Source: Candidatus Aminicenantes bacterium UBA6228
GTDB taxonomy: Bacteria > Acidobacteriota > Aminicenantia > Aminicenantales > Saccharicenantaceae
NCBI GenBank assembly: GCA_002441005.1
Contig: DJWO01000002.1
Coordinates: forward strand, 70,784 to 134,783
Reading direction: 5' to 3'
DNA length: 64,000 bases
The position numbers were made by a program, and so were the translations under genes. The notes below the pieces were generated by a model. It did not search any database, was not told where the DNA came from, and saw only the letters and a program-made list of their open reading frames with translations. Below, in pieces: positions 41,401 through 58,692 of the stretch (positions within the stretch are counted from its first letter, which is position 1; each line of letters begins with the position of its first letter).

Positions 41401-41436
41401 AAAAAAATAGGAAATATAGATTGTGTCCCCAGTTTT
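41401..41436 (+). repeat. GTGTCCCC-box repeat (F orientation) upstream of the sensor kinase
   Basis: AAAAAAATAGGAAATATAGATTGTGTCCCCAGTTTT is almost identical to the copy at 52254. Confidence 0.85.
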
Positions 41437-41439
41437 AAC

Positions 41440-43134
41440 ATGGCGAAACGTCAAGTTTTATCCGGCTTGAATATTTTCTGGAGGATGATTCTTGGCTATC
41501 TGGTGGTCATCTTCCTGGTAGTAGCCATCAGCGCCTACTCCATCCTCAGCCTGAATAAAATTAATCGCCTGGCCAGCTCCATCCTCTCTATTGACCAACA
41601 GGTGACCGACCTCGAAACAAAGATGACGGACTCTCTCCTTGCCCAGGCTCAGAACGAGCAAAAATATCTCGTGACTCGCGATGAATCATATCTCAATCTT
41701 TATCTCTCCCAGCGGCAGGCCTTCCTCGAAAATTTCGCCCGGCTGGCCCCGCTCCTTACTTCACCCGAAGAGCTGTCTTTAAAAGAAAAAATTCAGGAAC
41801 TATTTTCGCTCTACTCCTCCCATGTGGAACAGCTGATGAACCCGTCTTCCTCACCTGCTTCACCCTCTACACTCCCCGCGCCCTCTGCGCCCCCTGCGTC
41901 CTCCTCGCCGCCCTCCACACCCCCTGCGCCGTCCTCGCCATCCACATCCTCCACGTCCTCCTCATCCCCTCCATCCTCCGCGCCCCTAAATCCTATCTCC
42001 TCTCCCTCGACGGCCATCATCGCCAGTGACTACTCTGCGGACAATAGCGCTTTACTCGGCAGTGACCCCAAAGCCCTGGTCGATGAGCTGACCGCCTCCC
42101 TCGAAAAATTGATTGGCCTGCGCCAGTCGATGATCAACCAGAAGATGGAACAGTTGCGGCAAATGGGCAACCAGGCCTCCCTCATCACCCAGATTTTGGT
42201 CGCGGCCAGCCTGGTCCTGTGCCTGATTCTGGCCTTCTTTATCACCCGCAGCATCAGCCGGCCGCTGCGGAAGATCGAAAAGATGACTGAATATATTGGT
42301 GACCTGAATTTCGATCACCACCTTAACCTTGGCGTTCATTCGCCACGCGAGCTGGCCCAACTGGCTCAATCTTTCAGTCAGATGGCTGACCGGCTAAAAG
42401 AAATAGATGAGATGAAAAACAATTTCATTTCCCATGTCTCTCACGAACTCCGCACGCCCCTGACCTCCATCAATGAAGCCGGCGATTTACTGCTGGATGG
42501 GGTGGGCGGAGAGATTACCAGCCGCCAGGAGCACCTGCTGCAAATTATCAAACAGTGCACCGAGCGGTTGATCAAAATGGTCAATAACCTCCTCGACCTG
42601 TCCAAGATGGAAGCCGGCATGATGAATTATGAATTCGTTCAGGCCAGCTTTAGCCAGATAATTCTCCATAGCCTCCAGGAGCTCGACTTGCTGGCCCGGA
42701 AGAAATCTATCCGGCTCGAAGTTCAGCTGGAAGACAATCTGCCCCTGCTTAAAATGGATGTTGATAGAATGCAGGAAGTCGTGGATAACCTGCTGAGTAA
42801 CGCGGTCAAATTTACTCCGGAAGGCGGGACTGTCCGGATTGAAGCCCGCCAGGTGACGAGCTTTCTTCAGGTCAGTGTGTCTGACACCGGGCCCGGTATT
42901 CCCCCCGAGTATCAGTCCAGAATATTTGAAAAATTCCAGGGAATTAAGTCCGGCCGGACGTCTCAGACAAAGGGAACCGGCCTGGGCCTGTCCATCGCCA
43001 GCCATATTGTCAAAGCCCATGGAGGAAAAATCTGGGTGGAAAGCACCGAAAGGAAAGGAAGCACCTTTTATTTTAGTCTTCCGCTCACTGCTGCCCGGGA
43101 GAAAGACCGCCCCGAGGAAAAGAAGGAGAAGTGA
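41440..43134 (+). CDS. Sensor histidine kinase (TM - extracytoplasmic domain with P/S/A-rich tract - TM - HAMP - HisKA - HATPase)
   Basis: HELRTPLT H-box plus N and G boxes (GTGLGLSI). The MAKRQVL start was chosen because the longer ORF begins inside the repeat. Confidence 0.85.
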   Translation: MAKRQVLSGLNIFWRMILGYLVVIFLVVAISAYSILSLNKINRLASSILSIDQQVTDLETKMTDSLLAQAQNEQKYLVTRDESYLNLYLSQRQAFLENFARLAPLLTSPEELSLKEKIQELFSLYSSHVEQLMNPSSSPASPSTLPAPSAPPASSSPPSTPPAPSSPSTSSTSSSSPPSSAPLNPISSPSTAIIASDYSADNSALLGSDPKALVDELTASLEKLIGLRQSMINQKMEQLRQMGNQASLITQILVAASLVLCLILAFFITRSISRPLRKIEKMTEYIGDLNFDHHLNLGVHSPRELAQLAQSFSQMADRLKEIDEMKNNFISHVSHELRTPLTSINEAGDLLLDGVGGEITSRQEHLLQIIKQCTERLIKMVNNLLDLSKMEAGMMNYEFVQASFSQIILHSLQELDLLARKKSIRLEVQLEDNLPLLKMDVDRMQEVVDNLLSNAVKFTPEGGTVRIEARQVTSFLQVSVSDTGPGIPPEYQSRIFEKFQGIKSGRTSQTKGTGLGLSIASHIVKAHGGKIWVESTERKGSTFYFSLPLTAAREKDRPEEKKEK

Positions 43135-43135
43135 A

Positions 43136-43819
43136 ATGTCCCGCTTTACTGGCCTTACTGGCTCTGCTGGCTTAAACTTGAAAAAGCCTGACCTGTTTCT
43201 GACCCTGGCCCTGGCCGCGGCCGTCATAGGTGCTGCCGCCATGACCCTGAGCTGCTCAACCATGTTTGTTTCTCCACAGAAAGAGGAAATCAAAATCCAT
43301 CTTTCCCGGGCTGAATATTTCTTTAATCGCAGTGATTATCAAAAGGCCGCTCAAGAATATGAACAGATTCTGGCCCGGTATCCCCGGAACCCCTGGCAGG
43401 ATAAAGTCCTGTTTTCCCTCGGCCGGCTTTACGGCCGGAGTGATAATCCTCAGCGGGATTTTAAAACCTCGTTTTCTTATTTTCAGAGGCTAAAAGCCGG
43501 GTTTCCAAAAAGTACTTATATCAAAGAAACCGAAGAGTGGCTCAACTGGCTCGAAGAGATTATCTCTCTCCAGGAAAAAATTAATTCTCTGCAAACTGAA
43601 ATCAGTACTCTCCAGGCTGAATTAAATAAGGTCACTGCCGAAAAACTTGAAGCGGAAAAAGCTCTGTCAACCGAGACTTCGCGTCAGGCGCAAGAAAGAA
43701 CTGAGCTTGAAAATAAAATACGCCAGCAAAATACCCTGATTGAAAACCTTAAAAGCCAGCTGGAAAAAATCAAAGAGATAGACGTCCTCACCGAGAGAAA
43801 AACCAAAAAAGATAATTAA
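43136..43819 (+). CDS. TPR-like / coiled-coil lipoprotein
   Basis: Signal peptide with the TLSC lipobox, a TPR-like segment, then heptad-rich QTEISTLQAELNK... Confidence 0.55.
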   Translation: MSRFTGLTGSAGLNLKKPDLFLTLALAAAVIGAAAMTLSCSTMFVSPQKEEIKIHLSRAEYFFNRSDYQKAAQEYEQILARYPRNPWQDKVLFSLGRLYGRSDNPQRDFKTSFSYFQRLKAGFPKSTYIKETEEWLNWLEEIISLQEKINSLQTEISTLQAELNKVTAEKLEAEKALSTETSRQAQERTELENKIRQQNTLIENLKSQLEKIKEIDVLTERKTKKDN

Positions 43820-43832
43820 TAAGGAGGCCGGC

Positions 43833-45987: not shown

Positions 45988-46623
45988 ATGAAAAAACATC
46001 AAAAGATTTTCATTTTCGCCATCGCCACTCTTGTCATCTTTATCTCGAGCCAGAGTTGCGCCACCAAAAAATTTGTCAGAACCGAAGTAGGAACAGTAGA
46101 TCAGCAGGTAAAAGATGTTAAGACAGCGGTTGATGAAAACACCAAAACCATCCAGGCCCATGAAGAAAAGCTGGCCAGCTTAGGGTCGCTTATCACCCAG
46201 CAGGGCTCGGAGCTAAAAAATGTGGAAACAAGCCTGGAAGAAGTCCGGAAAACTGCTCAAGGGAAACTAATTTTAAAGGAAGTCCTCAAGAACGACGAAG
46301 TTAAATTCGCCTTTGATAAGGCCGAGTTGACGGCTGAGGCTAAAGCCAGGCTGGATGAATTTGTCCAGAAACTTATCGAACTCGACCGCGGCCTGTATCT
46401 TGAAATTCAAGGGCATACCGACAATACCGGCCCGGATAGCTGGAATATGAGGCTGGGGAAGATGAGAGCAGAGGCAGTTAGAGATTATCTGTACAAGCAG
46501 CATCACCTGCCACTTCACCGGATGGAGGTCATCAGTTTAGGAAGCTCGGTGCCGGTAGCCGATAACAACAGCCGTGAGGGAAGAGCAGCCAACAGGCGGG
46601 TCGAAATCTTAGTCTATGAATAA
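45988..46623 (+). CDS. OmpA-family lipoprotein (coiled-coil + OmpA/MotB peptidoglycan-binding domain)
   Basis: Lipobox SQSC and a C-terminal OmpA-like domain (…NRRVEI). Confidence 0.8.
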   Translation: MKKHQKIFIFAIATLVIFISSQSCATKKFVRTEVGTVDQQVKDVKTAVDENTKTIQAHEEKLASLGSLITQQGSELKNVETSLEEVRKTAQGKLILKEVLKNDEVKFAFDKAELTAEAKARLDEFVQKLIELDRGLYLEIQGHTDNTGPDSWNMRLGKMRAEAVRDYLYKQHHLPLHRMEVISLGSSVPVADNNSREGRAANRRVEILVYE

Positions 46624-46653
46624 ATGGGGACACATTCTATATTTCCTATTTTT
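46622..46653 (-). repeat. GTGTCCCC-box repeat (R orientation, variant)
   Basis: AAATGGGGACACATTCTATATTTCCTATTTTT, located at the stop of the OmpA-family gene. Confidence 0.8.
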
Positions 46654-46699
46654 CGCCCCTTTTTTATGGCGACAAGATTGAGAAATAGAGAATACCTAT

Positions 46700-47551
46700 A
46701 TGAAGAGGGTACCTGGATCAGCCAATTTTCGCCGCCAGGCGATGGTGGCCCTCCGGAGTGTGGCGGCAGCGACGGCACTGCTTTACCTTGCTGGCTGTGC
46801 AAGCGGGCTACGAGCCCCAGGATCACTGCCGCCTCCTCCATCCTCTGCCTCACGGCCTGGTCCCTGGGAGACAAGCTACGCTGTCTATGACCCCGCCCTT
46901 TTTGGGCCAGAGTTGCCACTCACCGGACTTGTTGAACAACACCGGCTCAAACTCAAAAACGGCAAGCTAAAAAAGGCCAGGCTTCTCATCATCAAATCAC
47001 AGCGGCGGCTCGAACTCTGGGTTGGGAAAAAGATGGTTAAGGCCTATCGTATCCAACTCGGCCAGAATCCCGCCGGGCCGAAAAAGCGGCAGGGTGATTT
47101 GCGAACTCCTGAGGGCGAATACTTTATCTGCGAGCACCGGCCATCAACCTACCATCGCGGTCTGATGATTTCCTATCCAAATGTTCAGGATGCCAGGCGC
47201 GGACTGGAAGCGGGCTTAATCAGTCAGAAACAGTTCGACGAGATTAGAGCTGCCATCAAAGAGGGGAGATGCCCCCCACAGAACACCAAGCTCGGCGGAC
47301 TGATTTTGATTCACGGCCAGCTGCCCGAGTATACGGCAGATTTTGCCCGGAGCCAGAGGGCAAAACCAGGCTCGCGTCGGCCAGGACTTGAGCCCGGGGA
47401 TGCCAATCCCGCCGAGATTCGCGAATTTCATGATTGGACCAACGGCTGCATCGCCCTGTTCAATCCGGACATTCGCGAGCTCTATGAGTTTGTCCCGGAC
47501 GGAACCCCCGTGACCATTGTGGCTAACGGTCCAGTCACCGCCCCTCATTAA
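46700..47551 (+). CDS. L,D-transpeptidase (YkuD domain) lipoprotein
   Basis: Catalytic HGQ…TNGCIAL motif and a lipoprotein signal peptide. Confidence 0.8.
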   Translation: MKRVPGSANFRRQAMVALRSVAAATALLYLAGCASGLRAPGSLPPPPSSASRPGPWETSYAVYDPALFGPELPLTGLVEQHRLKLKNGKLKKARLLIIKSQRRLELWVGKKMVKAYRIQLGQNPAGPKKRQGDLRTPEGEYFICEHRPSTYHRGLMISYPNVQDARRGLEAGLISQKQFDEIRAAIKEGRCPPQNTKLGGLILIHGQLPEYTADFARSQRAKPGSRRPGLEPGDANPAEIREFHDWTNGCIALFNPDIRELYEFVPDGTPVTIVANGPVTAPH

Positions 47552-47750
47552 AATCGGGACACCCTAGATTTTCACTATTTTCTCCCTACAAATTTGTGCT
47601 AATTCGGGACACCTTAAATAATACGGACACAATCTATATTTCCTCTTTTTACCATCACCAGCATAGATGTACTGACTTAAAAGAAGCGAGGTAACGCAAA
47701 GCCAAAACCATCTTTAAAAAAAAGTGAATATCTAGGGTGTCCCCATTTTT
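47552..47750. mobile_element. MITE-like ~200-bp element with terminal inverted GTGTCCCC-box repeats (three R-type units on the left, one F-type on the right)
   Basis: The left end CGGGACACCCTAGATTTTCAC is the inverted match of the right end GTGAATATCTAGGGTGTCCCC. The element lies immediately after the L,D-transpeptidase stop. Confidence 0.7.
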
Positions 47751-47791
47751 CTTTTCTTGCAGGAAGTGGACATATTTGGTATATTATTGCC

Positions 47792-48412
47792 ATGAAATGG
47801 GCGCAGTTTCTCGACCTTGCTGGCAACGAGCCTATTTTCTCCTCTTCGCTTCTAAAGACAGAGGACATCAGTCCCGCCGAGGCTGGCAAGCAGCTCTCCC
47901 GTTGGGTCAAGTCTGGAAAGCTCATCCAGATTCGCCGCGGTCTTTACATGTTAGCTGAGCCATATATAAAAATCAGACCTCATCCCTTCTATGTCGCCAA
48001 CAAGCTCCAGAGAGGCTCTTATGTCAGTCTGCAGTCAGCCCTGGAATACTATGGCCTTATCCCGGAATATGTGCCGGCCGTTACGAGCGTTACTACCAGG
48101 CGCACCCAAACTTTCGCCACTCCCCTTGGCAATTACATTTTCCGCCATGTCAAAAAGGAGCTTTTCTTCGATTATGTTCAATTAGACATGGGAGGAGGGC
48201 AACTGGCTTTTGTGGCCACGCCAGAAAAGTCCCTCCTTGATCTTTTATATCTCACTCCCGGCTCTGATAATCCTTCTTATCTCCGCGAACTAAGACTTCA
48301 GAATCTCGAAAATCTGAATATTGAACGTTTCAAATCTCTGGCCAGCCAGACACGCAGCCGCAAGCTTATCCGAGCCGCAGGAATTCTTGGAGGTCTGTTA
48401 AGGAGGCTTTAA
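47792..48412 (+). CDS. abiEi: AbiEi-family type IV toxin-antitoxin antitoxin / transcriptional regulator
   Basis: 206 aa with an N-terminal wHTH and the typical C-terminal domain; paired with the downstream NTase. Confidence 0.75.
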   Translation: MKWAQFLDLAGNEPIFSSSLLKTEDISPAEAGKQLSRWVKSGKLIQIRRGLYMLAEPYIKIRPHPFYVANKLQRGSYVSLQSALEYYGLIPEYVPAVTSVTTRRTQTFATPLGNYIFRHVKKELFFDYVQLDMGGGQLAFVATPEKSLLDLLYLTPGSDNPSYLRELRLQNLENLNIERFKSLASQTRSRKLIRAAGILGGLLRRL

Positions 48413-48426
48413 AGGAAGGCCGAAAA

Positions 48427-49260: not shown

Positions 49261-49272
49261 ATCGGCTGGATA

Positions 49273-49464
49273 ATTCGGGACACCCTAGATTTTCACTATT
49301 TTCTCCATACAAATTCGGGACGCCTTAATAAAAAATATGGACACGATCTATATCTTCCGTATTTCCCCTCGGCAACAGAGATGTCCAGAGTATAGGCAAG
49401 GAAAATATAGGGAAGCAGAAAGCCTCCTTAGAAAAATAGGAAATATCTAGGGTGTCCCCATTTT
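49273..49464. mobile_element. Second MITE-like element with the same terminal inverted repeats
   Basis: The left-end 31 nt are identical to the 47552 element, and the right end is AAAATAGGAAATATCTAGGGTGTCCCCATTTT. Confidence 0.7.
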
Positions 49465-49520
49465 CCAAGCTGATTGAGTATTTAAATTGATAATGATTTC
49501 GACCGTCATCTATAATCAAA

Positions 49521-49778: not shown

Positions 49779-50023
49779 AGCTACCCAGAGATATTCAGGG
49801 TATTGAACTGGCCAATTCACTTAGCAAATTTGGCTATAAAATTACCAGGCAAACAGAAAGCCACTTGCGTCTAACAAGAATCTCGGAGGATGTACATCAT
49901 ATTACAATCCCAAAGCATAAAACTCTGAAAATTGGGACGTTGAATAACATTCTTAATGATGTTGCCGGGCACCTGGGCAAGACAAAAGAAGAAATAGCTG
50001 AAGAACTCTGGGAAAAGAATTAG
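49775..50023 (+). CDS. hicA: HicA mRNA interferase toxin
   Basis: 82-aa YcfA/HicA-like protein with the conserved His. Confidence 0.75.
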   Translation: MKLPRDIQGIELANSLSKFGYKITRQTESHLRLTRISEDVHHITIPKHKTLKIGTLNNILNDVAGHLGKTKEEIAEELWEKN

Positions 50024-50098: not shown

Positions 50099-50133
50099 GA
50101 AAATAGGAAATATCTAGGGTGTCCCCATTTTTC
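50099..50133 (+). repeat. GTGTCCCC-box repeat (F orientation)
   Basis: CGAAAATAGGAAATATCTAGGGTGTCCCCATTTTT. Confidence 0.85.
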
Positions 50134-50153
50134 CAGTCTTCTCCCTATCTGGC

Positions 50154-50696: not shown

Positions 50697-50713
50697 CTCT
50701 GCCTCCCACCTAT

Positions 50714-51970
50714 TTAAGTGGTGCGTCTGGCTTCAGAAATTGCACAAATGTCTTCATTTTGTAAGCCAGCCAGCTCGAGCAATTCAATCAGCTTATTCCT
50801 GCTGATGAGCCCTCCCCTTGCTGCTTCGACTGCCAGATAGAAAAGATGCTCGGTGGCGTTTTGGAAAATACCCCCTTTCTCACTATCCTTATCGGGGTCT
50901 TTCTTTCTCAGAATATCCTTAATTGCCTTACCGGCCGGGCTACTATCCTGCTCTAAAAGTAAATCCTTCTCTTTTCCACTTATAAGATTAAGGTTAAAGA
51001 GCCTCCAGATAGAAGCTTCGACGCTTACCCCAAAATATCTGGCCATTCGTACCACATGCGGATAGTTAATCGTGGATGACCTCGATTGTTTGGCCACAGC
51101 CTGCCTGGCTTCGTAGCTTACAACTTTATCTTTGACCATCAATGGCACCTGAATCCTTGACGGCATGGCCTTGCCGCACCTCTTCAAGAACTCTCTTACA
51201 GCGTTTTCTGGTATAAGAAAACAGGCAGCAAAAACATCTGCTCTTACTTCTCGAAGATCTTTCTTGCCTTCTTCCCGGGAAACTATGGCCGGCAAATCGT
51301 TCAGATCACAGAGTGCATGGCAGTATTCATGAATTACGGAATATCTCTGGCGAACAGGAGGTTCGGTACTATTAATTGCACAGACTGTAGCCTCCCCGGA
51401 GCGAAAAGTGAAACCGGAAAGCCCTGCCGGCAATTGCATCTCGAGGGTTAAAATCCCCTGGGTATCAAGCAAAGAAGCCGGATCGCCTACCGGAGCAACT
51501 CCCAGGCCGAGCCTGTTTCTTTCCTGAGCAGCAATCTCTTGTCCCTGCTCAACGGCATCCCACCTGGTGCGCATTTTTCGGTCGTATGCACAAAGAGGTC
51601 CAGAACTAAGGCGGTTAACGCCCAATTTATTTTCAAGGTCAAAGATAGCATTGATGATTTCCAGCCCTCTGTTCATGCCTTCCTGTATTTGATGGTCAGA
51701 ACAAACCTCCGGAACTGCCCTTAAAATGTAAGAGAGCCCCTCAGCCTCAAAGGCCTCTTCAAAAAAGCTGTGAATTGGACGCCCGTATAAGTGGGCTAAA
51801 GCCGCCAGCTCCAGACTTGAAACCTTTCTCTTGCCTGCTTCGATCTGGGCAATTACGGGCCGAACCAGGCCCAGGGCGCTTGCCACCTGTTCTTGAGTAA
51901 ATCGAGCTTTTTCCCTGGCTTCCTTTAGCCTTCGGGCCAGTTCTTCCTGGGTTATGGTCATTTTTGCCAC
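50714..51970 (-). CDS. HTH-XRE + ImmA/IrrE metallopeptidase fusion regulator
   Basis: N-terminal XRE HTH (FTQEQVASALGL) and a HEXXH zinc-peptidase motif (VIHEYCHAL) with a downstream Glu. Confidence 0.8.
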   Translation of the reverse strand: MAKMTITQEELARRLKEAREKARFTQEQVASALGLVRPVIAQIEAGKRKVSSLELAALAHLYGRPIHSFFEEAFEAEGLSYILRAVPEVCSDHQIQEGMNRGLEIINAIFDLENKLGVNRLSSGPLCAYDRKMRTRWDAVEQGQEIAAQERNRLGLGVAPVGDPASLLDTQGILTLEMQLPAGLSGFTFRSGEATVCAINSTEPPVRQRYSVIHEYCHALCDLNDLPAIVSREEGKKDLREVRADVFAACFLIPENAVREFLKRCGKAMPSRIQVPLMVKDKVVSYEARQAVAKQSRSSTINYPHVVRMARYFGVSVEASIWRLFNLNLISGKEKDLLLEQDSSPAGKAIKDILRKKDPDKDSEKGGIFQNATEHLFYLAVEAARGGLISRNKLIELLELAGLQNEDICAISEARRTT

Positions 51971-52253
51971 CTTAAATTAAGTAATTAAGCTAACAAGCTT
52001 CAGCCAGAGGCGATATTATCATTAATCATTAACTGAGCTCCCTTCGGATTGGGGTTCCGCCTCCTCCCTTTTAAAATATAGAAACTATTACATCATTTGT
52101 CAAGATATGGCTATTTATGTAATTAAATACTACGCCAACTAAAAGAAAGTCAGCTACATTTGGCGCGGCCTGAATCGGGCCAATTCAGCAGGAATAAGAT
52201 CCAACAAGATTAAGTTATATAATTTTTATCCGCCAGCCCCTTCGCCGCCAGAC

Positions 52254-52289
52254 AAAAAAATAGGAAATATAGAATGTGTCCCCATTTTT
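52254..52289 (+). repeat. GTGTCCCC-box repeat (F orientation)
   Basis: AAAAAAATAGGAAATATAGAATGTGTCCCCATTTTT. Confidence 0.85.
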
Positions 52290-52309
52290 GCCCTGATTTC
52301 TTGCCGATT

Positions 52310-52786
52310 TCACTTTTTAATTATGCCAAGCTCAGCTAAAAAAACCGCCAGATCTATCTCAACAAGGTTTTTAGCCTCGTCTGGAGGAAAATAATCAGAA
52401 GCAAGCCCATCAAGCCATTGAGGGCTCTTTCTTGATCCAATCCTGCAAAGAGTGAGATAACGTGCGGTCTCAGAAGCATCTCGTAGCTTCCTAAATTTTT
52501 TAAAAGCTTCTTCGCTAAGGTGATTATGGATTAATTTTTCCCGCCAGGCATGAGGAGACGTATTAAATTTGCCATCTCTACCGACGGGTATGCTTGTCTC
52601 TGTATGCTTCTCTCTCTTATCATATAGCCAGCACTCAAAATAATGAATCGCAGAATAAAATGAGGCAGTGATACCCCAATCATGGTACGGAGGTTCGTTT
52701 ACTAGTTTTTTTGCTAATTTTTTATTGTGTTCAGCTTGAGAAAGATGCACATGACGATCGGCCATGTTTATCTCGCAAAAATGCAC
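52310..52786 (-). CDS. Hypothetical protein with a HEPN-like Rx4-6H motif (REKLIH); third gene of a three-gene operon
   Basis: 158 aa in an AT-rich region. The Rx4H motif was seen by eye; I recognise no other family signature. Confidence 0.45.
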   Translation of the reverse strand: MHFCEINMADRHVHLSQAEHNKKLAKKLVNEPPYHDWGITASFYSAIHYFECWLYDKREKHTETSIPVGRDGKFNTSPHAWREKLIHNHLSEEAFKKFRKLRDASETARYLTLCRIGSRKSPQWLDGLASDYFPPDEAKNLVEIDLAVFLAELGIIKK

Positions 52787-53382
52787 TGCGCCTGGGGATG
52801 AATAAAATCTGTCTTGTCTGAAATAAATACCGGAGGATAAAAGAACTCAAAAATCAAAGAAGAATATATTTTTCTTATTTCATATTCAATATCTAAAAGC
52901 TGGTCCATTAAACTACCATCATACCGATCTGAAGTAATTAGAATATAAACCTGAATTTCTTCTCTAAATTTTTGAGCGTAAATAGATTTAACTTTTCTAA
53001 TCTTGGCATAATTCGCGGCAATTCTGAGAAGGGCAGCTTGCTCTAAATCTTCCTTCTCTAATTCCATAATATATGACATTAAACCAAGAATTGCCTCCAG
53101 ATTATCATAATAACTTCTAATCTCTTTTGTCCTAGTCTTAGATAGGGGGAAAATCGATGAGGCTATAAACACGCCAGGGTCTGTATAATCGCTCCTCGCC
53201 ACGATTTTCTCAAGCAGTCTCTCGAATTCTCTAAAAACGAATTCACGAAGGCTATATCTATATTCTTTATCTCGCCAGGGTATTGCATAGCTTTTTGTTT
53301 CCCCACCCGGGCAAAGAGTATTATAACTATTCCCTGGCCAAATTAAATCTGTTCCTGTATAAACAGTTTGTGCTGTATCCAA
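52768..53382 (-). CDS. Hypothetical protein (204 aa), second gene of the operon
   Basis: Long ORF in AT-rich DNA that overlaps its neighbours in an operon-like arrangement; no recognisable motif. Confidence 0.5.
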   Translation of the reverse strand: MDTAQTVYTGTDLIWPGNSYNTLCPGGETKSYAIPWRDKEYRYSLREFVFREFERLLEKIVARSDYTDPGVFIASSIFPLSKTRTKEIRSYYDNLEAILGLMSYIMELEKEDLEQAALLRIAANYAKIRKVKSIYAQKFREEIQVYILITSDRYDGSLMDQLLDIEYEIRKIYSSLIFEFFYPPVFISDKTDFIHPQAQCIFAR

Positions 53383-53384
53383 AG

Positions 53385-54092
53385 TTACTCTCCTAATAAA
53401 CTTAAATGCGACTCTAAAGTGCTTTTCATAATCCTAACGCTCTCTTCTAAAAAGGCCTGGATTGATTCTTTTTTAAAATCATAAGTATTTTCAGCTAAAG
53501 TATTTATGTCTAAAAGAAATGAGATTAATCTATCTTCATGAGGAAGAGATATATCATGGGCAGATCTAATCCGTGTCCACTTATTTGCCTCAAAATCAGA
53601 TAATGTTTCCCTATTCAAGCAATGGATCTCCAATTCACGAGGCCTGGCTATCGGCGCTTCTTTATTGATATATTTAGACAGAAGATGCTCTGCAGAAGAG
53701 CCGCTGTCTAACTCTATAACCCAATGAGTCACAATCGCCAGTCTCGTAACCTTAGCATTTAGCTCATTTTTTAGATATTGAAACAACGATAAAAAGTTTT
53801 CAAAAAGTTCTTCGAAGGAAGAAACATTACTGAATTCATCCTTTTTATATCTTAATATAAGATCAACTCTGTTTTTTGATATAGACAAATTGTATGTCTT
53901 ATCTTTTGAGCTCATTTGAATTCTTGGGATTTCAACAGGAGCATCGTCTGGTATAGGCAAGATTACAGGTTCACCATCCAGAACATTTAGGTATTTCTCC
54001 CTTATTGTAACTCCTGCCTTTAGCACATCAAAAATAACGATCCCCGGACTAAACAGTACTAGTTGAATGCTATCTACCCTTGTATTCATCAT
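53385..54092 (-). CDS. Hypothetical protein (235 aa), first gene of the operon
   Basis: Long ORF 2 bp upstream of the next gene; no recognisable motif. Confidence 0.5.
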   Translation of the reverse strand: MMNTRVDSIQLVLFSPGIVIFDVLKAGVTIREKYLNVLDGEPVILPIPDDAPVEIPRIQMSSKDKTYNLSISKNRVDLILRYKKDEFSNVSSFEELFENFLSLFQYLKNELNAKVTRLAIVTHWVIELDSGSSAEHLLSKYINKEAPIARPRELEIHCLNRETLSDFEANKWTRIRSAHDISLPHEDRLISFLLDINTLAENTYDFKKESIQAFLEESVRIMKSTLESHLSLLGE

Positions 54093-54465
54093 AAACTCCT
54101 GTTTTTATTATCATATACTCTACTTAAAAAATCAAAAAAGCAGATCATTTAGGAACCCGCTTAATGATAAGGCTACCCTCTTCTTAAATACGCATTCTGT
54201 CAAAGCCATCACTTCCCTTTTATTTTATAAGTATAACATATTGTTCTTCATTTTTAATAATTCTATTTTAATTTTAAGATAGTGTTTCCAAGCCATAAAG
54301 TTTGTCTCGCCCTGGGCATTAAGAATAAATAGCCCCGCCCAATTCTCCCGGCTCGACCAAAATATGGTTGATTTTCCCATAGACATGAAGCTTAACTAGG
54401 CAGTCATCCCTCAAGAAAAAGAAAGGTTGGTTGTGTCGCCTCTTACCATCTGTAAAAAAATTCAT

Positions 54466-54501
54466 TTGACAAAACGTTATGTGTGGTATATTCTTACCAC
54501 A
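54466..54501 (+). promoter_or_regulatory. Sigma-70-type promoter (TTGACA, -10 TATATT/TATTCT) with an overlapping inverted repeat TGTGGTA-tattct-TACCACA (candidate XRE operator)
   Basis: Read directly; lies 20-50 nt upstream of the HTH-XRE gene ATG at 54520. Confidence 0.45.
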
Positions 54502-54519
54502 TAAAGGAGAGAAAAGGAA

Positions 54520-54879
54520 ATGGTTGCCTTTGGTGAATTTATCAGGGAGCTCAGGTTAAAGGCGGGGCTGACGCTACGTCATTTTTGTCAGCTGACCGGC
54601 TTCGACCCGAGCAACTGGAGCAAAATTGAGCGGGGGCTATTATCGCCCCCAAAAAGCAAGGCAGTGCTGATAGAAATCGCGCGTGTCCTTAACCTGACCG
54701 AAGAATCTGAAGACTACAAGACCTTATTTGATCTGGCCGCCATCGGTCAGATCCCTGTAGATTTGGTTTCCACCCCCCAGGTGATGGAAAAGCTGCCAGT
54801 TTTCTTTAGAACGATAAGAGGCGAAAAGCCGACTCGCCAGGAACTTGAAGATTTGATTAAAATTCTCGGTGAAGAATAA
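54520..54879 (+). CDS. XRE-family HTH transcriptional regulator
   Basis: HTH (LTLRHFCQLTGFDPSNWSKIERG). Confidence 0.75.
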   Translation: MVAFGEFIRELRLKAGLTLRHFCQLTGFDPSNWSKIERGLLSPPKSKAVLIEIARVLNLTEESEDYKTLFDLAAIGQIPVDLVSTPQVMEKLPVFFRTIRGEKPTRQELEDLIKILGEE

Positions 54880-55512
54880 ATGTCCGCTTCCAAAAGACCC
54901 CCGGCCACCATTACTCCGCCCTGGCTAAGCTTTGACTATATAAGACAGCAAGCAGACAACTTCAGACAACAATACGTAAAACCTCCAGACCTTGTGCCTG
55001 TCCCCATGGAGGATGTAGTCGAGCTCGATTTGAAGTTTCAAATAATCCCAATAATTGGCTTACAGGACAGAATAGACGTCGATGGTTTTTTAACTAATAA
55101 TTTAAAAGCTATCTGTGTTGATTATAATGTATATACGGATGAACGCTGGTCGTCGCGCTTGCGATTCACGCTGGCTCACGAAGTCGGTCATCTTGTCCTG
55201 CATAAAGAACAAATACAACAATGCAGATTTAGAACCCCCGAAGATTGGATCCATTTCAGAGAAGACTTCACTGAAGATGATTTAAATTGGTTCGAAGCCC
55301 AAGCTTATGAATTTGCCGGAAGACTCCTCGTCCCAAAAGAAGAACTGGAACAGCAAATAAGATCACGTAGTGATGAGATAAGAACTTTTAAGGAACGTTT
55401 TCCGGACAGTCCTGATCTTAACGAGGCTATTTCGCGGGTCATTTGCGGCCATTTCGGTGTCTCAGATCAGGTAATTTGTAGAAGGATTGCAAAAGAGAAA
55501 ATCCGCTTATGA
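54880..55512 (+). CDS. ImmA/IrrE-family metallo-endopeptidase
   Basis: HEXXH motif (AHEVGHLVLH); start abuts the stop of the HTH gene. Confidence 0.75.
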   Translation: MSASKRPPATITPPWLSFDYIRQQADNFRQQYVKPPDLVPVPMEDVVELDLKFQIIPIIGLQDRIDVDGFLTNNLKAICVDYNVYTDERWSSRLRFTLAHEVGHLVLHKEQIQQCRFRTPEDWIHFREDFTEDDLNWFEAQAYEFAGRLLVPKEELEQQIRSRSDEIRTFKERFPDSPDLNEAISRVICGHFGVSDQVICRRIAKEKIRL

Positions 55513-56073: not shown

Positions 56074-56159
56074 TTAAATTCTTGTACAAAATAGATGATA
56101 GCACTGTAGATATAGCGTTTTATGTCCAGACTTAAACCTCCCAGCATAATCCGATGATT

Positions 56160-56340
56160 TCGGCCACTGAATCCAGTCGAAATCCAATCGTGGCCGGCCG
56201 CCTTTCGGAGCGTAGCAACGCCGGGCCTAATTTTTTTATCCCAGCTGGCCAAGTTCCCGTCGAAATATCCACCTGAATTCAATTGGAATTGACGGCCGGA
56301 TTCCATTGGAATGGGTGGCCGGCTTCCCGTCGGGATACGC
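56160..56340. repeat. Iteron-like array of ~26-bp imperfect direct repeats (GGCCGGC-TTCCCGTCGRRAYAYCC)
   Basis: At least five units with variable 10-25-bp spacers; two more units lie at 56657-56706. Confidence 0.6.
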
Positions 56341-56363
56341 ATGGCTTTGTTAATCATTCCTAA

Positions 56364-56585
56364 CTGTTAATAGGCGCCTAGTATTACAATGTAGATCTGC
56401 ACACAGTTTTACGAGGCCGGCGGTAGTGGCTGGTAGGAGGGGGAGAGTCACATTTTACTTGGGCTCCGCACTGGAAGATACCAGGTGCCGAGAACCATTG
56501 AGAAGATCAGACGAAACCGATAGGCGGGCAACATTTTGAAGATTAAGGGATTCGGGCGGTTAATTTTAAATTGGTAAAGGACGGG
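56364..56585 (+). repeat. Conserved ~200-nt module (copy A) shared with 58335-58560; candidate structured ncRNA or recombination site
   Basis: A 75-nt block, TACTTGGGCTCCGCACTGGAAGATACCAGGTGCCGAGAACCATTGAG[A/G]AGATCAGACGAAACCGATAGGCGGG, is shared with a single A/G difference; the flanks are about 80% identical. Confidence 0.75.
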
Positions 56586-56735
56586 TTCCTTATCGCATCA
56601 CAGGCGAAAAAAGGAGGATATCTGGTGTGCCCCTTTTTTGGCCACCTATTCCAACTATCACCACGAAATTGGCCGCCTTCCAGTCGAAACACCCGGCCGG
56701 CTTGCATCGGAATACCGGAATACAGAAGCCACCAG

Positions 56736-56873
56736 AGAAAAAAGGAAATATAGACTGTGTCTCCCTTTTCAATCGATAAAAGGGAATAAATAGGGCCTAT
56801 TGATTTTCCTGGCTGATGCGTTTATGGCCCGTGCCCGAAAAAAATAGTGAATATCTAGGGTGTCCCGATTTTT
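56736..56873 (+). repeat. Pair of GTGTCCCC-box repeats (variant + canonical F) forming the right end of the composite element that starts near 56364
   Basis: AGAAAAAAGGAAATATAGACTGTGTCTCCCTTTTC … GAAAAAAATAGTGAATATCTAGGGTGTCCCGATTTTT. Confidence 0.8.
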
Positions 56874-56956
56874 CTGGGAGCAATGTCCCGAAAGGCGAGG
56901 GCATCAGCCCGAAGCCTATATGCTGTGTTATGCGCTGGTGCCGAGCATGTATTTCA

Positions 56957-57640
56957 TTAATGAGCATTCTTTTTACTCTCCATTAAGAACTCTTTAATGT
57001 CATTAATAAATTCATTGAGTTTCCCCTCTTTAGACAGATTATACACTCTTAGCCCAGTTCTTTGACTACTGATTAAAGATACAGGTGGCACGCTTAAACT
57101 CATACAAAGGCTATACCCCAATACGCTGGGATACCTATTTCTTATGTTATCCAAGATAGCTCTATCTTCGTCAAGCCAGTTTGTGCTTTGCCAAATCTTG
57201 CAACTTATGATTATTAGAGGATGGATCAAATTATTTTCTCGCTTACCTATAGCCAGGTCTACGGCTTTGTATTTTGGATATTTTTTAAATCCTCTATTTT
57301 CAAACATATAAAATTCTTCTGTTAAAATCTTTGCATTCCAGAATAGTTCGACTGCCTTTTCAGCTTCGCTTTCCTTGATTGCTTTTTTCAATATGTCAAA
57401 ACAAAACTCCTCAAAGGCAATTCCTCTAAAATTGTTGTAAGTGTTTTCACCCAACTTAGGTTTAATGTTGCCCTTTTCTTCCCAAGTGATCTTTAGGAAG
57501 TGTGATAACGATTTAATATCAAGTTTCTTTTTCCATTTTTTATAAAAAATGAGAAGTTCATTATATCTGCTATAGCCTTTATCTTTAAGTTCCTGCAAAT
57601 AGTCGGTAGTTTTCTTGATCCTTCCCATATTATTCACCAA
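56957..57640 (-). CDS. Hypothetical protein, possibly a PD-(D/E)xK-like nuclease
   Basis: 227 aa in AT-rich DNA. The pattern AVDLAIGKRENN…IIISCKIW resembles a D…(E)xK motif; weak support. Confidence 0.4.
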   Translation of the reverse strand: MVNNMGRIKKTTDYLQELKDKGYSRYNELLIFYKKWKKKLDIKSLSHFLKITWEEKGNIKPKLGENTYNNFRGIAFEEFCFDILKKAIKESEAEKAVELFWNAKILTEEFYMFENRGFKKYPKYKAVDLAIGKRENNLIHPLIIISCKIWQSTNWLDEDRAILDNIRNRYPSVLGYSLCMSLSVPPVSLISSQRTGLRVYNLSKEGKLNEFINDIKEFLMESKKNAH

Positions 57641-57776
57641 TAGTTAGCGTGGCATTTGCCTATAACTTAAAATAACCGAACTACTTCATTTATGCTCCCG
57701 GACCGACACATTTTGTGAAGTATTTCGTTTAGGCAAGATTCTAAGTGAAATCTCGAATTGTAACCTTTTCTTGTTA

Positions 57777-58337
57777 TCATTTCTTTCCAAAATCCAAAGA
57801 GCTTTTAATCCGTCCGATATCCTGCTGGCTGACGGGAGTACAAATTTCTGTAGTTTTCGAGTTTTTATGTCCAGGTAACTTTTGAACATACCATAAATCT
57901 GTAGTACCTTCTAAAAGATGAGTAGCAAAACTATGTCGCAAGGTGTAGACAGTAACATTTTTAGCAATACCCGCTTTTTGGCTGACAGCTTCCAGAGTCT
58001 TCTCAACTGTTCTTGCTGTTAAATGGCTATTTGGTTCTGATCCTATGAAAAGCCAGTTTTTAGGCTGATAGGCCTTCCAGTATTCTCGTAACACTCTTAG
58101 AGCAACTTCTGAAAGAACTTTATATCTTTCCTTTCGACCTTTTGCCGCCTTTATATAAATCATATTGCGTTTCGTATCAATATGTTCTGTAATTAATTTT
58201 ATCACCTCACTCACCGTTAATCCAGCAGAATATACCAGCATAAGAATTGCTTTATGCTTGATATTATTTACAGACTCAAATATGCCTATGACATCTTCAC
58301 GACTAAGAATAATGGAGAATTTTTTCTTGGTCAGCTG
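57777..58337 (-). pseudogene. 5'-truncated, catalytically degenerate tyrosine recombinase (phage-integrase family) remnant
   Basis: C-terminal catalytic-domain motifs are present (LMLVYSAGLTVSE, TLRHSFATHLL, GHKNSKTTEICTPV), but Arg-I is replaced by Thr, His-II by Tyr and the catalytic Tyr by Cys. The frame opens just after a TGA at 58338-58340 with no upstream start codon and no N-terminal core-binding domain. Confidence 0.7.
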
Positions 58338-58560
58338 TCAATAGGCGTATAGTATTGCGAGGTAGATCGGCACATAGTTTCACGAGGCCGAAGACACTGG
58401 TGGGGAGGATGGTGAGAGTCACATTTTACTTGGGCTCCGCACTGGAAGATACCAGGTGCCGAGAACCATTGAGGAGATCAGACGAAACCGATAGGCGGGG
58501 ATATTATTGCCGGAAAGGGATTCGGTTGGTTAATTTTAAAGTTGGTTAATTTTAAATTGA
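58335..58560 (+). repeat. Conserved ~200-nt module (copy B), abutting the recombinase truncation point
   Basis: See copy A; begins CTGTCAATAGGCG…. Confidence 0.75.
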
Positions 58561-58593
58561 AAAGTGGCAGGTTCTGCTATCGCTTCACGCGGA

Positions 58594-58692
58594 AACAAAT
58601 AGAATATATAGCGCCTCCCGATTTTCGGGCTGACGCCTGTATGGCCCGTGCCAGAAAAAAAATAGTGAATATATAGGGTGTCCCTATTTTTT
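58594..58692 (+). repeat. Pair of GTGTCCCC-box repeats (variant + canonical F) ending the copy-B composite element
   Basis: AAACAAATAGAATATATAGCGCCTCCCGATTTT … AGAAAAAAAATAGTGAATATATAGGGTGTCCCTATTTTTT. Confidence 0.8.

What the first reader, a model, noticed from the sequence alone, without database searches (positions are those of the whole stretch)
41401..58692. Dispersed GTGTCCCC-box repeat family and MITE-like elements ending in it
A ~30-bp AT-flanked motif, AAAATAGGAAATATCTAGGGTGTCCCCATTTT, occurs at least 12 times. F-orientation copies are at 41401, 47716, 49433, 50099, 52254, 56736, 56837, 58594 and 58654. R-orientation copies are at 46622, 47553-47650 (three tandem units) and 49274-49355 (three units). 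Two ~200-bp elements (47552-47750 and 49273-49464) have R units on the left and an F unit on the right, that is, terminal inverted repeats with divergent interiors, as in MITEs. Two larger composites (56364-56873 and 58335-58692) share a highly conserved ~200-nt 5' module and end with the same F repeat. The other F copies sit alone at gene boundaries. Every copy is intergenic, usually within a few bp of a stop codon. I do not recognise the motif as a known REP, attC or IS end.
Basis: seen in the sequence. Interest (0 to 1): 0.7.

Follow-up and report, generated by a model that had tools for sequence, protein, structure and literature searches.

The report
REP-like repeats of a RAYT transposase
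The repeated 35-base motif is the end sequence of a single-strand-DNA "tyrosine" transposase gene (RAYT/TIRYT type) and has spread as short copies behind genes throughout Aminicenantes bacteria, so it is a new family of an already known kind of bacterial repeat.

Summary
The motif is real. It is a sharply bounded 35-nt unit, AAAAATA-GGAAATAT-AGATT-GTGTCCCC-ATTTTT, with 13 copies in window 41.4-58.7 kb against about 0.5 expected by chance. It is not local: exact copies occur in 48 loci from 18 Aminicenantes/Saccharicenans assemblies. Copies are intergenic and polar. The GGGG end abuts a gene's stop codon, and the stop is often supplied by the unit's A-tract. They occur as singles, inverted doublets and clusters.

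In all 7 loci examined, a Y1/HUH transposase gene is flanked by an upstream and a downstream unit in inverted orientation, GGGG ends outward. The best NCBIfam match of this gene is "REP-associated tyrosine transposase", and its only PDB match is TnpA-REP 4ER8. One of these loci comes from the window's own metagenome. The unit subfamily changes with the transposase lineage. GGGGACAC fits the published GGGGWSAS box of "TIRtron/TIRYT" repeats.

Verdict: this is a new REP-like/TIR family of a RAYT-class transposase. The MITE reading is only partly right: the copies are non-autonomous inverted doublets, but they have no target duplications, no DDE element and mostly unrelated interiors. Units mark the edges of swapped toxin-antitoxin/defence modules between strains. 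A 250-nt conserved module in the two larger composites remains unexplained. Interest is modest.

The parts
41402..41438 (+). 35-nt unit, subtype A, F orientation. The GGGG end faces the start of the histidine-kinase gene.
   Evidence: nhmmer 43.1 bits; sequence
46619..46654 (-). Unit, subtype A, R orientation. It overlaps the TAA stop of the OmpA-family gene 45988-46623.
   Evidence: 40.2 bits; stop fused to the A-tract; perfect 32-nt inverted repeat with 52256-52287 (I2)
47548..47752 (.). Unit cluster 'el1', made of R(B) 47548-47583, a GGGACAC half-site at about 47603-47619, R(A) 47620-47651, 65 nt of spacer and F(B) 47716-47752. It lies between the YkuD and AbiEi genes.
   Evidence: 73% identical to el2; the orthologous site in L019 has a single unit
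49268..49467 (.). Unit cluster 'el2', made of R(B) 49268-49304, a half-site at about 49317, degenerate R 49331-49353 and F 49431-49467. It lies between the AbiEii and HicB genes.
   Evidence: the L019 orthologue has a single F unit
50100..50134 (+). Unit, F orientation (A-type left arm with B-type centre CTAGG). It lies 20 nt from the stop of gene 50154-50696(-).
   Evidence: 36.2 bits; the centre differs at 4 of 5 nt from the 98.5%-identical contig L050; left edge of the module shared with L043
52254..52290 (+). Unit, subtype A, F orientation. It lies 20 nt from the stop of gene 52310-52786(-).
   Evidence: 43.3 bits; homology with L050, L019 and L043 ends at this unit
54405..54440 (+). Degenerate F-like unit (AAAAAGAAAGGTTGGTTGTGTCGCC) at the right edge of the segment that is replaced in L050.
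   Evidence: read (junction J2); below the nhmmer threshold
56364..56875 (+). Composite A, made of a conserved non-coding module (56364-56625), a ~150-nt insertion with weak unit 56594-56639 and unit 56736-56771, and terminal unit 56838-56875.
58335..58692 (+). Composite B, made of the same module (58335-58560), degenerate unit 58594-58628 and terminal unit 58657-58692. Its left end abuts the truncated recombinase ORF.
57777..58334 (-). 5'-truncated tyrosine recombinase (Phage_integrase catalytic domain only). This is a different enzyme class from the Y1 transposase and is probably not part of the repeat system.
   Evidence: Pfam PF00589, 2.8e-28, profile positions 29-166 of 172; the reading frame runs up to 58334 (read)
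35095..40115 (.). Sibling family 'F2' units GGGGACGTGATACTCTGTCCCC at 35100-35123 (half), 36642-36684 (inverted doublet), 36736-36763, 39992-40034 (doublet) and 40086-40113. They have the same A-tract/GGGGAC/T-tract architecture and also sit at or overlap stop codons.

Best explanation
The GTGTCCCC-box motif is a 35-nt REP-like repeat unit. It is the terminal inverted repeat of a chromosomal, low-copy Y1 (HUH) 'tyrosine' transposase gene of the RAYT/TIRYT class, a so-called REPtron/TIRtron.

Shown here:
- The unit is sharply bounded.
- It is lineage-wide in Aminicenantes.
- It is extragenic and placed with its GGGG end against gene ends, often supplying the stop codon.
- It occurs as singles, inverted doublets and clusters.
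- It flanks the RAYT-like gene in inverted orientation in every locus examined, and the unit subfamily tracks the transposase lineage.

Inferred from the IS200/IS605-RAYT paradigm (E. coli RayT, structure 4ER8; IS608): the transposase recognises the unit on single-stranded DNA as an imperfect hairpin. The arms are GGGGACAC/ATATTTCC, with conserved G-T and C-A mismatches, next to a (A/T)TAG foot. The enzyme cleaves through a 5'-phosphotyrosine link and copies or replaces units in trans. This would keep the family homogeneous over long times.

Secondary consequences, also inferred: units sitting directly after stop codons probably act as weak, polar 3'-end (terminator or mRNA-stabilising) elements. 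As short dispersed homologies they also mark the places where accessory toxin-antitoxin/defence modules are exchanged between strains.
For: 1. Unit definition. Information content is about 2 bits per position across exactly 35 nt and about 0 outside.

2. Distribution. There are 48 loci in 18 assemblies, essentially all Aminicenantes/Saccharicenans, with 153 profile hits in 331 kb.

3. Extragenic and polar placement.
- 101 of 130 copies are intergenic, although 84% of the DNA is coding.
- The GGGG side lies <=30 nt from a gene end in 38 cases, the AT side in only 3.
- The stop codon is fused to the A-tract (TAA-AAT-GGGGACAC) in about half of the cases.
- The adjacent genes are diverse ordinary genes.
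- Published REPs behave the same way: they lie <20 bp from 3' ends and supply stop codons (PMC3733652).

4. The transposase.
- E. coli RayT found 3 of the 48 motif loci by tblastn, with E = 5e-6 to 2e-3. The three hits form one blastp cluster.
- Pfam Y1_Tnp matches at about 5e-12.
- The only NCBIfam hit is NF047646 'REP-associated tyrosine transposase', 61-67 bits.
- The only PDB hit is 4ER8 TnpA-REP.
- The HUH motif and the catalytic Tyr are conserved.

5. Flanking arrangement. In 7 of 7 loci (L030, L041, L047, L059, L062, L064, L066) there is an upstream R unit and a downstream F unit, with GGGG ends outward.
- L064 comes from the same metagenome (JGI 3300001592) as the window's probable source contig.
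- The flanking subfamily differs with the transposase lineage: F1A, an ACAT variant, the F3-like GGTGACGCCCTAC type, the F4 GGGGACACAATAC type and GGGGACAGTTC.

6. Low copy number and vertical inheritance. Homologue clusters sit on 1-5 contigs each. The synteny DUF5916 - RAYT - M28 peptidase is shared by L064 and L030, whose transposases are 94% identical at the protein level.

7. Literature.
- RAYT-like 'TIRYT' genes are flanked by TIRs that share GGGGWSAS. GGGGACAC fits this consensus exactly. These TIRs form families of singles, dimers and clusters, and a distinct TIRYT group occurs in Acidobacteria (PMC3733652, section 16).

8. Maintenance. Units are about 100% conserved at orthologous sites whose flanks are only 78-84% identical.
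Against: - No catalysis or mobility was observed. No empty site or excision junction was found in 23 orthologous comparisons, so current activity is unproven.
- The NCBIfam score is below the equivalog cut-off (67 against 80 bits).
- The unit is only weakly self-complementary. Sense-strand pairing is 6 of 8, with conserved C-A mismatches, and 22% of copies break the closing pair. ssDNA hairpins are only -2.6 to -4.1 kcal/mol, z about -1.5. It is therefore not a classical palindromic REP.
- There is no GTAG or CGTC tag, only (A/T)TAG.
- Doublet spacing is variable (56-426 nt), unlike strict REPINs.
- No RAYT gene lies in the window itself.
- The bias for the GGGG side to sit near gene starts as well as gene ends is not predicted by the model.
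Confidence: 0.8

Rival explanations
1. Classical MITEs. The R...F pairs would be deletion derivatives of a DDE-type insertion sequence whose terminal inverted repeats are the motif, and solo copies would be decayed elements.
For: - There are 22 R...F pairs with GGGG ends outward.
- el1 and el2 in the window are 73% identical over their whole length.
- They are absent as clusters from the L019 orthologous sites.
Against: - No target-site duplications; the flanks AAAAT/ATTTT are part of the inverted repeat.
- Interiors are unrelated and vary from 56 to 426 nt.
- Solo 35-nt units fill whole 34-41-nt intergenic gaps.
- No DDE transposase recurs near the units in 48 loci.
- The gene actually flanked by the units is a Y1/HUH transposase.
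Confidence: 0.03
2. The primary role is as a host 3'-end signal: a polar, sequence-specific transcription terminator or mRNA 3'-end stabiliser that the host selects at the ends of transcription units. The link to the transposase would be incidental.
For: - Strong polarity towards stop codons.
- A-tract/stem/T-tract architecture is shared by five sibling families.
- At orthologous 3' ends one genome carries F1 and another carries the hairpin family F2: L020 against the window and L043.
- The gene-sense RNA folds better (-6.9 kcal/mol) than the antisense (-3.3 kcal/mol).
- Units are conserved while their flanks diverge.
- The 41-60 kb region has no strong canonical terminators in intergenic positions.
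Against: - The core stem is only 5 bp with two G-U pairs. The conserved mismatches and conserved loop argue for sequence recognition rather than structure.
- About a third of copies face gene starts or sit in 5' leaders 17-50 nt before the ATG, where a terminator would be harmful.
- Independent terminators do not form identical-sequence families.
- The organism also has canonical strong terminators, for example at 62963-62980 (read).
- This reading does not explain the inverted flanking of RAYT genes. It is compatible as a secondary function.
Confidence: 0.1
3. Recombination sites of a tyrosine recombinase (Xer/pdif-like or attC-like) that bound mobile gene cassettes in a defence island.
For: - Pseudo-dyad arms surround a less constrained 5-nt centre.
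- Module edges between the window, L050, L043 and L019 fall exactly at units.
- Hybrid subtype units exist, and one centre was swapped within 98.5%-identical DNA.
- A truncated tyrosine recombinase lies nearby.
- The modules are TA/defence genes.
Against: - Units follow the stop codons of diverse housekeeping genes all over the chromosome and are stable at orthologous sites.
- Orientations do not alternate as in pdif arrays, and there is no GTTRRRY/RYYYAAC core as in attC.
- No integrase recurs near the units.
- The recombinase fragment is next to the 250-nt module, not to a typical unit array.
- The gene that does recur is a Y1 transposase.
Confidence: 0.04
4. Operator or binding sites of a lineage-specific DNA-binding regulator or nucleoid protein, or a DNA-uptake sequence.
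For: High information content, fixed half-site spacing, and conservation across species.
Against: - About 45 bits over 35 nt is far more than regulators need.
- Copies form tandem clusters and half-site duplications.
- There is no common regulon.
- Strong avoidance of coding DNA and gene-polar orientation are unlike uptake sequences.
- The flanking of RAYT genes is left unexplained.
Confidence: 0.03

Closest known systems
TIRtrons / TIRYT-associated TIR repeat families (Di Nocera et al. 2013, PMC3733652)
   Same: - A RAYT-like Y1 transposase gene is flanked by inverted repeats that are not GTAG REPs.
- The published TIR box GGGGWSAS is matched exactly by GGGGACAC.
- The TIRs form moderately abundant families of singles, dimers and clusters.
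- The proteins are longer than RAYTs (218-246 aa here against 165 aa for E. coli RayT).
- A distinct TIRYT group exists in Acidobacteria.
   Different: - The host lineage (Aminicenantes) and this particular 35-nt unit were not described.
- Here there are at least five sibling subfamilies, A/T-tract flanks and a strong gene-end polarity.
REP/BIME elements with RayT (E. coli) and REPIN-RAYT systems (Pseudomonas fluorescens SBW25)
   Same: - Units of 20-40 nt that are extragenic, abut 3' ends and can supply stop codons.
- Inverted doublets and clusters.
- A single-copy, vertically inherited RAYT flanked by inverted units.
- Several unit families per genome, each with its own RAYT.
   Different: - The unit is AT-rich and only weakly palindromic.
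- There is no GT(A/G)G head, only (A/T)TAG.
- Doublet spacing is not fixed.
- The RAYT score is below the NCBIfam equivalog cut-off.
IS200/IS605 family (e.g. IS608) and their non-autonomous PATEs
   Same: The same transposase superfamily (Pfam Y1_Tnp, HUH plus Tyr). The ends would be recognised as imperfect hairpins on ssDNA. There are no target duplications.
   Different: - IS200/IS605 ends are two different hairpins (LE and RE), not inverted copies of one unit.
- Those elements are multi-copy with the gene inside each copy. Here the gene is low-copy at a conserved locus and only the units are dispersed.
- No NCBIfam IS200 model matched.
Bacterial MITEs such as Neisseria Correia elements
   Same: Short, non-autonomous, intergenic, bounded by inverted repeats, often co-transcribed with neighbouring genes.
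   Different: Correia-type MITEs have conserved interiors, target-site duplications and DDE-type parents. None of these was found here.
Integron attC sites and Acinetobacter pdif modules
   Same: Imperfect inverted repeats at the 3' ends or edges of small accessory gene modules, including toxin-antitoxin pairs.
   Different: There is no attC core, no integron integrase and no alternating XerC/D arrangement. The units also follow ordinary housekeeping genes across the chromosome.

Membership tests
REP/RAYT (REPtron) and TIR/TIRYT (TIRtron) systems | A Y1 (HUH) transposase gene of the RAYT class is flanked by two units in inverted orientation. | tested here: met
   7 of 7 loci (L030, L041, L047, L059, L062, L064, L066) have an upstream R unit and a downstream F unit with GGGG ends outward. 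The feature is defined in PMC2817692.
REP/RAYT (REPtron) and TIR/TIRYT (TIRtron) systems | The transposase belongs to the RAYT class rather than bulk IS200. | tested here: inconclusive
   The only NCBIfam hit is NF047646 REP-associated tyrosine transposase, at 61-67 bits against a cut-off of 80. The only PDB hit is 4ER8 TnpA-REP. HUH and Tyr are conserved. RAYT-specific signature motifs were not checked individually.
REP/RAYT (REPtron) and TIR/TIRYT (TIRtron) systems | Units are short (20-40 nt), numerous and extragenic. | tested here: met
   The unit is 35 nt. There are 166 profile hits in 395 kb. 101 of 130 copies are intergenic against 16% non-coding DNA. A whole-genome copy number was not obtainable.
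REP/RAYT (REPtron) and TIR/TIRYT (TIRtron) systems | Units lie downstream of ORFs, close to or overlapping stop codons. | tested here: met
   The median distance from the GGGG side to a gene end is 12 nt. The stop codon lies inside the unit's A-tract in about half of the cases.
REP/RAYT (REPtron) and TIR/TIRYT (TIRtron) systems | Units are organised as singles, inverted dimers and clusters. | tested here: met
   There are 22 R...F pairs and tandem clusters, for example 7-9 units in L003, as well as el1 and el2 in the window.
Classical REP (GTAG/CGTC super-families) | Unpaired GTAG or CGTC tag at one end of a self-complementary stem-loop. | tested here: not met
   The foot is (A/T)TAG (A 0.73, T 0.86, A 0.89, G 0.98), not GTAG or CGTC. 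The stem pairs at only 6 of 8 positions, with conserved mismatches, and the ssDNA hairpins are weak.
TIRYT-type TIRs | The TIR carries the GGGGWSAS box. | tested here: met
   GGGGACAC equals GGGG-W(A)-S(C)-A-S(C). It is 95-100% conserved in the family. The consensus is quoted in PMC3733652, section 16.
REPIN | Inverted doublet with a conserved spacer length, forming one long hairpin as the replicative unit. | tested here: not met
   The spacing is 56-426 nt with unrelated spacers. Only el1 and el2 resemble each other.
REP/RAYT | The transposase cleaves and rejoins the unit on ssDNA. | not testable with these tools
   This needs biochemistry with a purified protein such as P0001.
MITE (DDE-type) | Target-site duplication flanking the terminal inverted repeats. 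| tested here: not met
   The flanks of the 22 pairs show only the inverted AAAAT/ATTTT, which belongs to the unit, and no direct repeats.
MITE (DDE-type) | Conserved interior derived from an autonomous IS with the same TIRs. | tested here: not met
   The interiors share no similarity. No DDE transposase recurs in the 48 loci.
Integron attC | R''/R' core sites RYYYAAC ... GTTRRRY and an array next to intI. | tested here: not met
   The unit consensus has no such cores. The genes next to the units are housekeeping genes in both orientations.
Intrinsic terminator | A stable GC-rich hairpin immediately followed by a U-tract in the gene sense. | tested here: inconclusive
   A T-tract is present and the orientation is polar, but the stem is 5 bp with 2 G-U pairs. 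The figure of -6.9 kcal/mol includes A/U-tract pairing. No expression data are available.

The most novel reading that the evidence does not exclude
The units may be more than selfish or terminator-like repeats. They may be the working junctions of a module-exchange system. In this reading, toxin-antitoxin and defence gene sets bracketed by units are excised, replaced or converted through the Y1 transposase, or through unit-to-unit recombination, which would make a RAYT-class enzyme a driver of defence-island turnover.

Observations that leave this open:
- Between 98.5%-identical strains, whole gene sets are replaced with breakpoints exactly at unit edges.
- One unit's 5-nt centre is swapped in situ.
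- The same two-gene module bounded by two units sits in a different context in L043.
- The unexplained 250-nt module next to unit clusters could be a further component.
Probability: 0.15. Interest if true: 0.65.

Novelty: new member of a known kind. Interest (0 to 1): 0.3.

Why it matters
It gives a name and a mechanism to a conspicuous repeat family in Aminicenantes, a widespread uncultured lineage for which I found no described REP-like element.

It extends RAYT/TIRYT-repeat systems to this lineage with a well-defined set of sibling unit families paired with their own transposase lineages. That set is useful material for studying how such transposases and their repeats co-evolve.

Practical uses:
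- The units explain assembly breaks; several short public contigs end at el1/el2.
- They flag mis-binned contigs.
- They mark the boundaries of variable defence/TA modules.
- They should be taken into account when calling stop codons and 3' ends in these genomes.

Tried and rejected
- Rfam, gathering thresholds on the whole window and on L050, L064 and L030, plus a permissive scan of 56-59 kb: nothing real.
- tRNA/tmRNA search: none.
- A scan of viral contigs and a phage BLAST with the 250-nt module: no match.
- Full-text searches for the motif sequence and for Aminicenantes together with REP terms: no paper.
- Sigma-70, sigma-54 and Bacteroidetes-type promoter readings of the unit: no consistent -35/-10, and subtype B lacks even the weak -10 (inspection).
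- RNA hairpin as the conserved feature: subtypes A and B fold differently, the closing pair is broken in 22% of copies, and both strands pair at 6 of 8 positions, so the structure does not account for the conservation.
- Xer/pdif and attC readings: rejected on core sequence, orientation pattern and the kinds of gene that carry units.
- Search for presence/absence polymorphisms of solo units between related loci: none found in 23 comparisons. Strain contigs encoding the window's exact AbiEi protein all have el1 and el2.
- Folding of the 250-nt module on both strands: no better than shuffles. With only 3.5 copies there is too little variation for covariation analysis.
- A Pfam scan of the L050-specific genes for an integrase or transposase: none.

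Full report
**Observation.** The motif is real and far above chance. GGAAATAT-N5-GTGTCCCC with up to 3 mismatches occurs 10 times against 0.51 expected, and the full 32-mer occurs 4 times against 0. Aligning 117 copies from the window and related loci shows a sharply bounded 35-nt unit, aAAAAATA-GGAAATAT-AGATT-GTGTCCCC-ATTTTT. Information content is about 2 bits per position inside the unit and about 0 immediately outside. Two subtypes coexist: A (centre AGATT/AGAAT) and B (GTGAATAT-CTAGG-GTGTCCC). Hybrids also occur. The two ~200-bp R...F elements and the two larger composites exist as described, except that the two ~200-bp elements are 73% identical to each other rather than divergent.

**Distribution.** A scan of one genome per species with TAGGAAATAT-N5-GTGTCCCCA returned 48 loci from 18 assemblies. 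Nearly all are labelled Aminicenantes, Ca. Saccharicenans or Acidobacteriota. The few labelled otherwise look mis-binned. For example, the 'Thermoplasmatota' contig L043 is syntenic with the window at 79-91% identity.

**Anatomy and context.** Of 130 good copies, 101 are intergenic although 84% of the DNA is coding. Placement is strongly polar. The GGGG end lies within 30 nt of a gene's 3' end in 38 cases, the AT end in only 3. In about half of the 3'-end cases the stop codon is part of the unit's A-tract (TAA-AAT-GGGGACAC), or a TAG overlaps the first G. The genes concerned are diverse ordinary genes such as SIS-domain proteins, glycosidases, aminotransferases and RNase HII. Units occur as singles that can fill an entire 34-41-nt gap between convergent genes. 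They also occur as inverted R...F pairs with interiors of 56-426 nt and no shared interior sequence or target duplications, and as tandem clusters with extra GGGACAC half-sites.

The unit is one of at least five sibling families, all built as A-tract, GGGGAC-box, 5-6 nt centre, pyrimidine-rich arm, T-tract:
- F1A: GGGGACAC-AATCT-ATATTTCC
- F1B: centre CCTAG
- F3: GGGGACGT-CCTAC-GCGTTTCC
- F4: GGGGACACAATACTCATTCCCC
- F2: GGGGACGTGATACTCTGTCCCC

F2 is present in the window at 35.1-40.1 kb.

**Comparative genomics.**
- L019 (Ca. Saccharicenans) is collinear with window 46952-52294 at 84-89% identity. Units sit at the same gene boundaries, but L019 has a single unit where the window has the ~200-bp clusters el1 and el2.
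- In 23 orthologous comparisons no empty site was found. Units stay about 100% identical where the flanking intergenic DNA is 78-84% identical. The units are therefore maintained, by selection or by homogenisation, and are not rapidly hopping.
- A metagenome contig (L050) is 98.5% identical to window 49565-52283. It carries a different 5-nt centre in the 50100 unit (AGACT against CTAGG), a different gene set after the 52254 unit with the breakpoint exactly after GTGTCCCC, and another replacement starting exactly at a unit's A-tract.
- L043 carries the two-gene module 50096-52133, bounded by its two units, in a different context.
- The variable genes are AbiE, HicAB, HTH-M78, Mrr-like, DUF488 and similar, that is, a TA/defence island with lowered GC.

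**The decisive evidence.** Published REPs behave the same way: they lie <20 bp from 3' ends, supply stop codons and form inverted dimers (PMC3733652). I therefore took E. coli RayT and searched all fetched DNA. It hit three of the 48 motif loci, with E = 5e-6 to 2e-3. These are the same three ORFs that had formed a recurrent protein cluster.

The proteins have these properties:
- Pfam Y1_Tnp at about 5e-12.
- Their only NCBIfam match is 'REP-associated tyrosine transposase', at 61-67 bits, below the cut-off of 80.
- Their only PDB match is TnpA-REP 4ER8.
- They keep the HUH motif and the catalytic tyrosine.
- The family is large, and its nearest members are named from Saccharicenans/Aminicenantes and sit on 1-5 contigs each.

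I fetched four more contexts. In all 7 loci the gene has an R unit upstream and an F unit downstream, with GGGG ends outward. The flanking subfamily differs with the transposase lineage: F1A at L064 and L030; an ACAT variant at L041; a GGTGACGCCCTAC type at L047; F4 types at L062 and L066; GGGGACAGTTC at L059. L064 comes from the same metagenome (JGI 3300001592) as contig L051, which is the window's probable source. Its RAYT locus (DUF5916 - RAYT - M28 peptidase) is syntenic with that of L030, and the two proteins are 94% identical. This points to a single, vertically inherited copy.

**Comparison with what is known.** Nunvar et al. state that RAYT genes are always flanked by two inverted REPs (PMC2817692). 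Di Nocera et al. describe 'TIRtrons': RAYT-like 'TIRYT' genes flanked by inverted repeats that are not GTAG REPs, many sharing the box GGGGWSAS. These repeats form families of singles, dimers and clusters, and a sharply defined TIRYT group occurs in Acidobacteria. GGGGACAC fits GGGGWSAS exactly, and the proteins here (218-246 aa) are longer than E. coli RayT (165 aa).

The unit fails the tests for a classical REP:
- It has no GTAG or CGTC tag, only (A/T)TAG.
- It pairs at only 6 of 8 stem positions, with conserved C-A mismatches.
- Its ssDNA hairpins are weak.

It also fails the tests for a strict REPIN (variable spacing), a DDE-type MITE (no target duplications, no conserved interior, no DDE parent), attC and pdif. 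I therefore file it as a new REP-like TIR family of a RAYT/TIRYT-class transposase, which is a new member of a known kind.

**Mechanism.** Shown: the unit definition, the placement, the lineage-wide distribution, the inverted flanking of the Y1 transposase gene, and the co-variation of subfamily with transposase lineage. Inferred from the IS200/IS605-RAYT paradigm (my knowledge of the IS608 and E. coli RayT work): strand-specific recognition of the unit as an imperfect hairpin on ssDNA, cleavage through a phosphotyrosine link, and trans-mobilisation or replacement of units. Also inferred: a secondary role as weak polar 3'-end elements. The gene-sense RNA folds to -6.9 kcal/mol and the antisense to -3.3 kcal/mol. 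F1 and the hairpin family F2 replace each other at orthologous 3' ends. A further inferred role is as hot spots for the exchange of accessory modules.

**Unexplained.**
1. The ~250-nt conserved non-coding module at 56364-56625 and 58335-58560 contains a 98-nt block that is identical in the two copies except for one base. It is also present once in full and once as a 3' part in L050, always followed by units and next to swapped genes. Copy B abuts a 5'-truncated tyrosine recombinase. It has no Rfam, tRNA, phage or viral match and no excess folding energy.
2. The GGGG side is close to genes at gene starts as well (median 57 nt), whereas the AT side is about 240 nt from any gene.

**Verdict.** The MITE interpretation is partly supported in spirit, since these are non-autonomous inverted-repeat derivatives of a transposase's ends, but it names the wrong class. 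Novelty: new member of a known kind. Interest is modest (0.3). The most novel reading still open is that unit-bounded TA/defence modules are exchanged through this system (probability about 0.15).

Noticed in passing
window 35095-35125, 36642-36684, 36736-36763, 39992-40034, 40086-40113: A second repeat family, GGGGACGTGATACTCTGTCCCC, occurs as singles and as perfect inverted doublets. The stop codons of genes 36751-38370(-) and 40101-40787(-) lie inside a unit. A ~120-nt block (doublet, 50-nt spacer, unit) is duplicated at 36643-36762 and 39992-40112. It has the shape of a canonical A-tract/hairpin/T-tract terminator and is a sibling of the main family.
   Followed up: partly
window 35089-40101 versus L043 1270-1317: In L043 the orthologues of genes 32762-35089 and 40101-40787 are convergent neighbours separated only by one F2 inverted doublet. 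In the window about 5 kb (four genes) lies between the two halves of that doublet.
   Followed up: partly
window 56364-56625 and 58335-58560; L050 3195-3455 and 1084-1220: A conserved ~250-nt non-coding module contains a 98-nt block identical in the two window copies except for one base. It has no Rfam, tRNA, phage or viral match and its function is unknown. It could be an ncRNA or an integration target.
   Followed up: partly
window 57777-58334 (-): A tyrosine recombinase gene lacks its N-terminal half. The reading frame runs exactly up to the left end of composite B (58335).
   Followed up: partly
window 56150-56345 and 56640-56720: Short repeats of the form GGCCGG-N-TTCC-NN-TCG-RRAWAC occur at 56247, 56317 and 56671. 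A 23-nt tandem repeat lies at 56277-56327, next to composite A.
   Followed up: no
window 47792-55512 and L050: A low-GC (0.37-0.45) variable island carries AbiEi/AbiEii, HicB/HicA, two HTH-plus-M78 (ImmA/IrrE-like) pairs and several genes of unknown function. In the 94-98%-identical contig L050 some of these sets are replaced by other genes (Mrr-like nuclease, beta-propeller, DUF488, DuOB).
   Followed up: partly
window 50100-50134 versus L050 12176-12210: Within DNA that is 98.5% identical, the 5-nt centre of the unit differs at 4 of 5 positions (CTAGG against AGACT). This implies in-situ replacement or conversion of a unit.
   Followed up: partly
L043 (JAQUQK010000049.1), L022/L046 (JAKPEE01), CAYQZX01 loci: Contigs deposited as Thermoplasmatota archaeon, Bacillota and 'uncultured Eubacteriales' carry the Aminicenantes unit. 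L043 is syntenic with the window, so these are probably mis-binned or mislabelled. The unit could serve as a lineage marker.
   Followed up: no
window 62954-62988: A canonical strong bidirectional intrinsic terminator (A-tract, GGGCGGC-CGAA-GCCGCCC, T-rich on the other strand) lies just downstream of the pilin-like gene 63011-63571(-). The organism therefore also uses ordinary terminators.
   Followed up: no
window 41840-42010: There is a Pro/Ser/Ala/Thr-rich low-complexity linker inside the histidine-kinase gene that follows the 41402 unit. The true start codon of this gene is uncertain, because the longest ORF (41350-43134) reads through the unit.
   Followed up: no
L066 about 2700-2780: A tRNA-like sequence on the minus strand lies immediately upstream of the unit that flanks the RAYT-like gene.
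   Followed up: no
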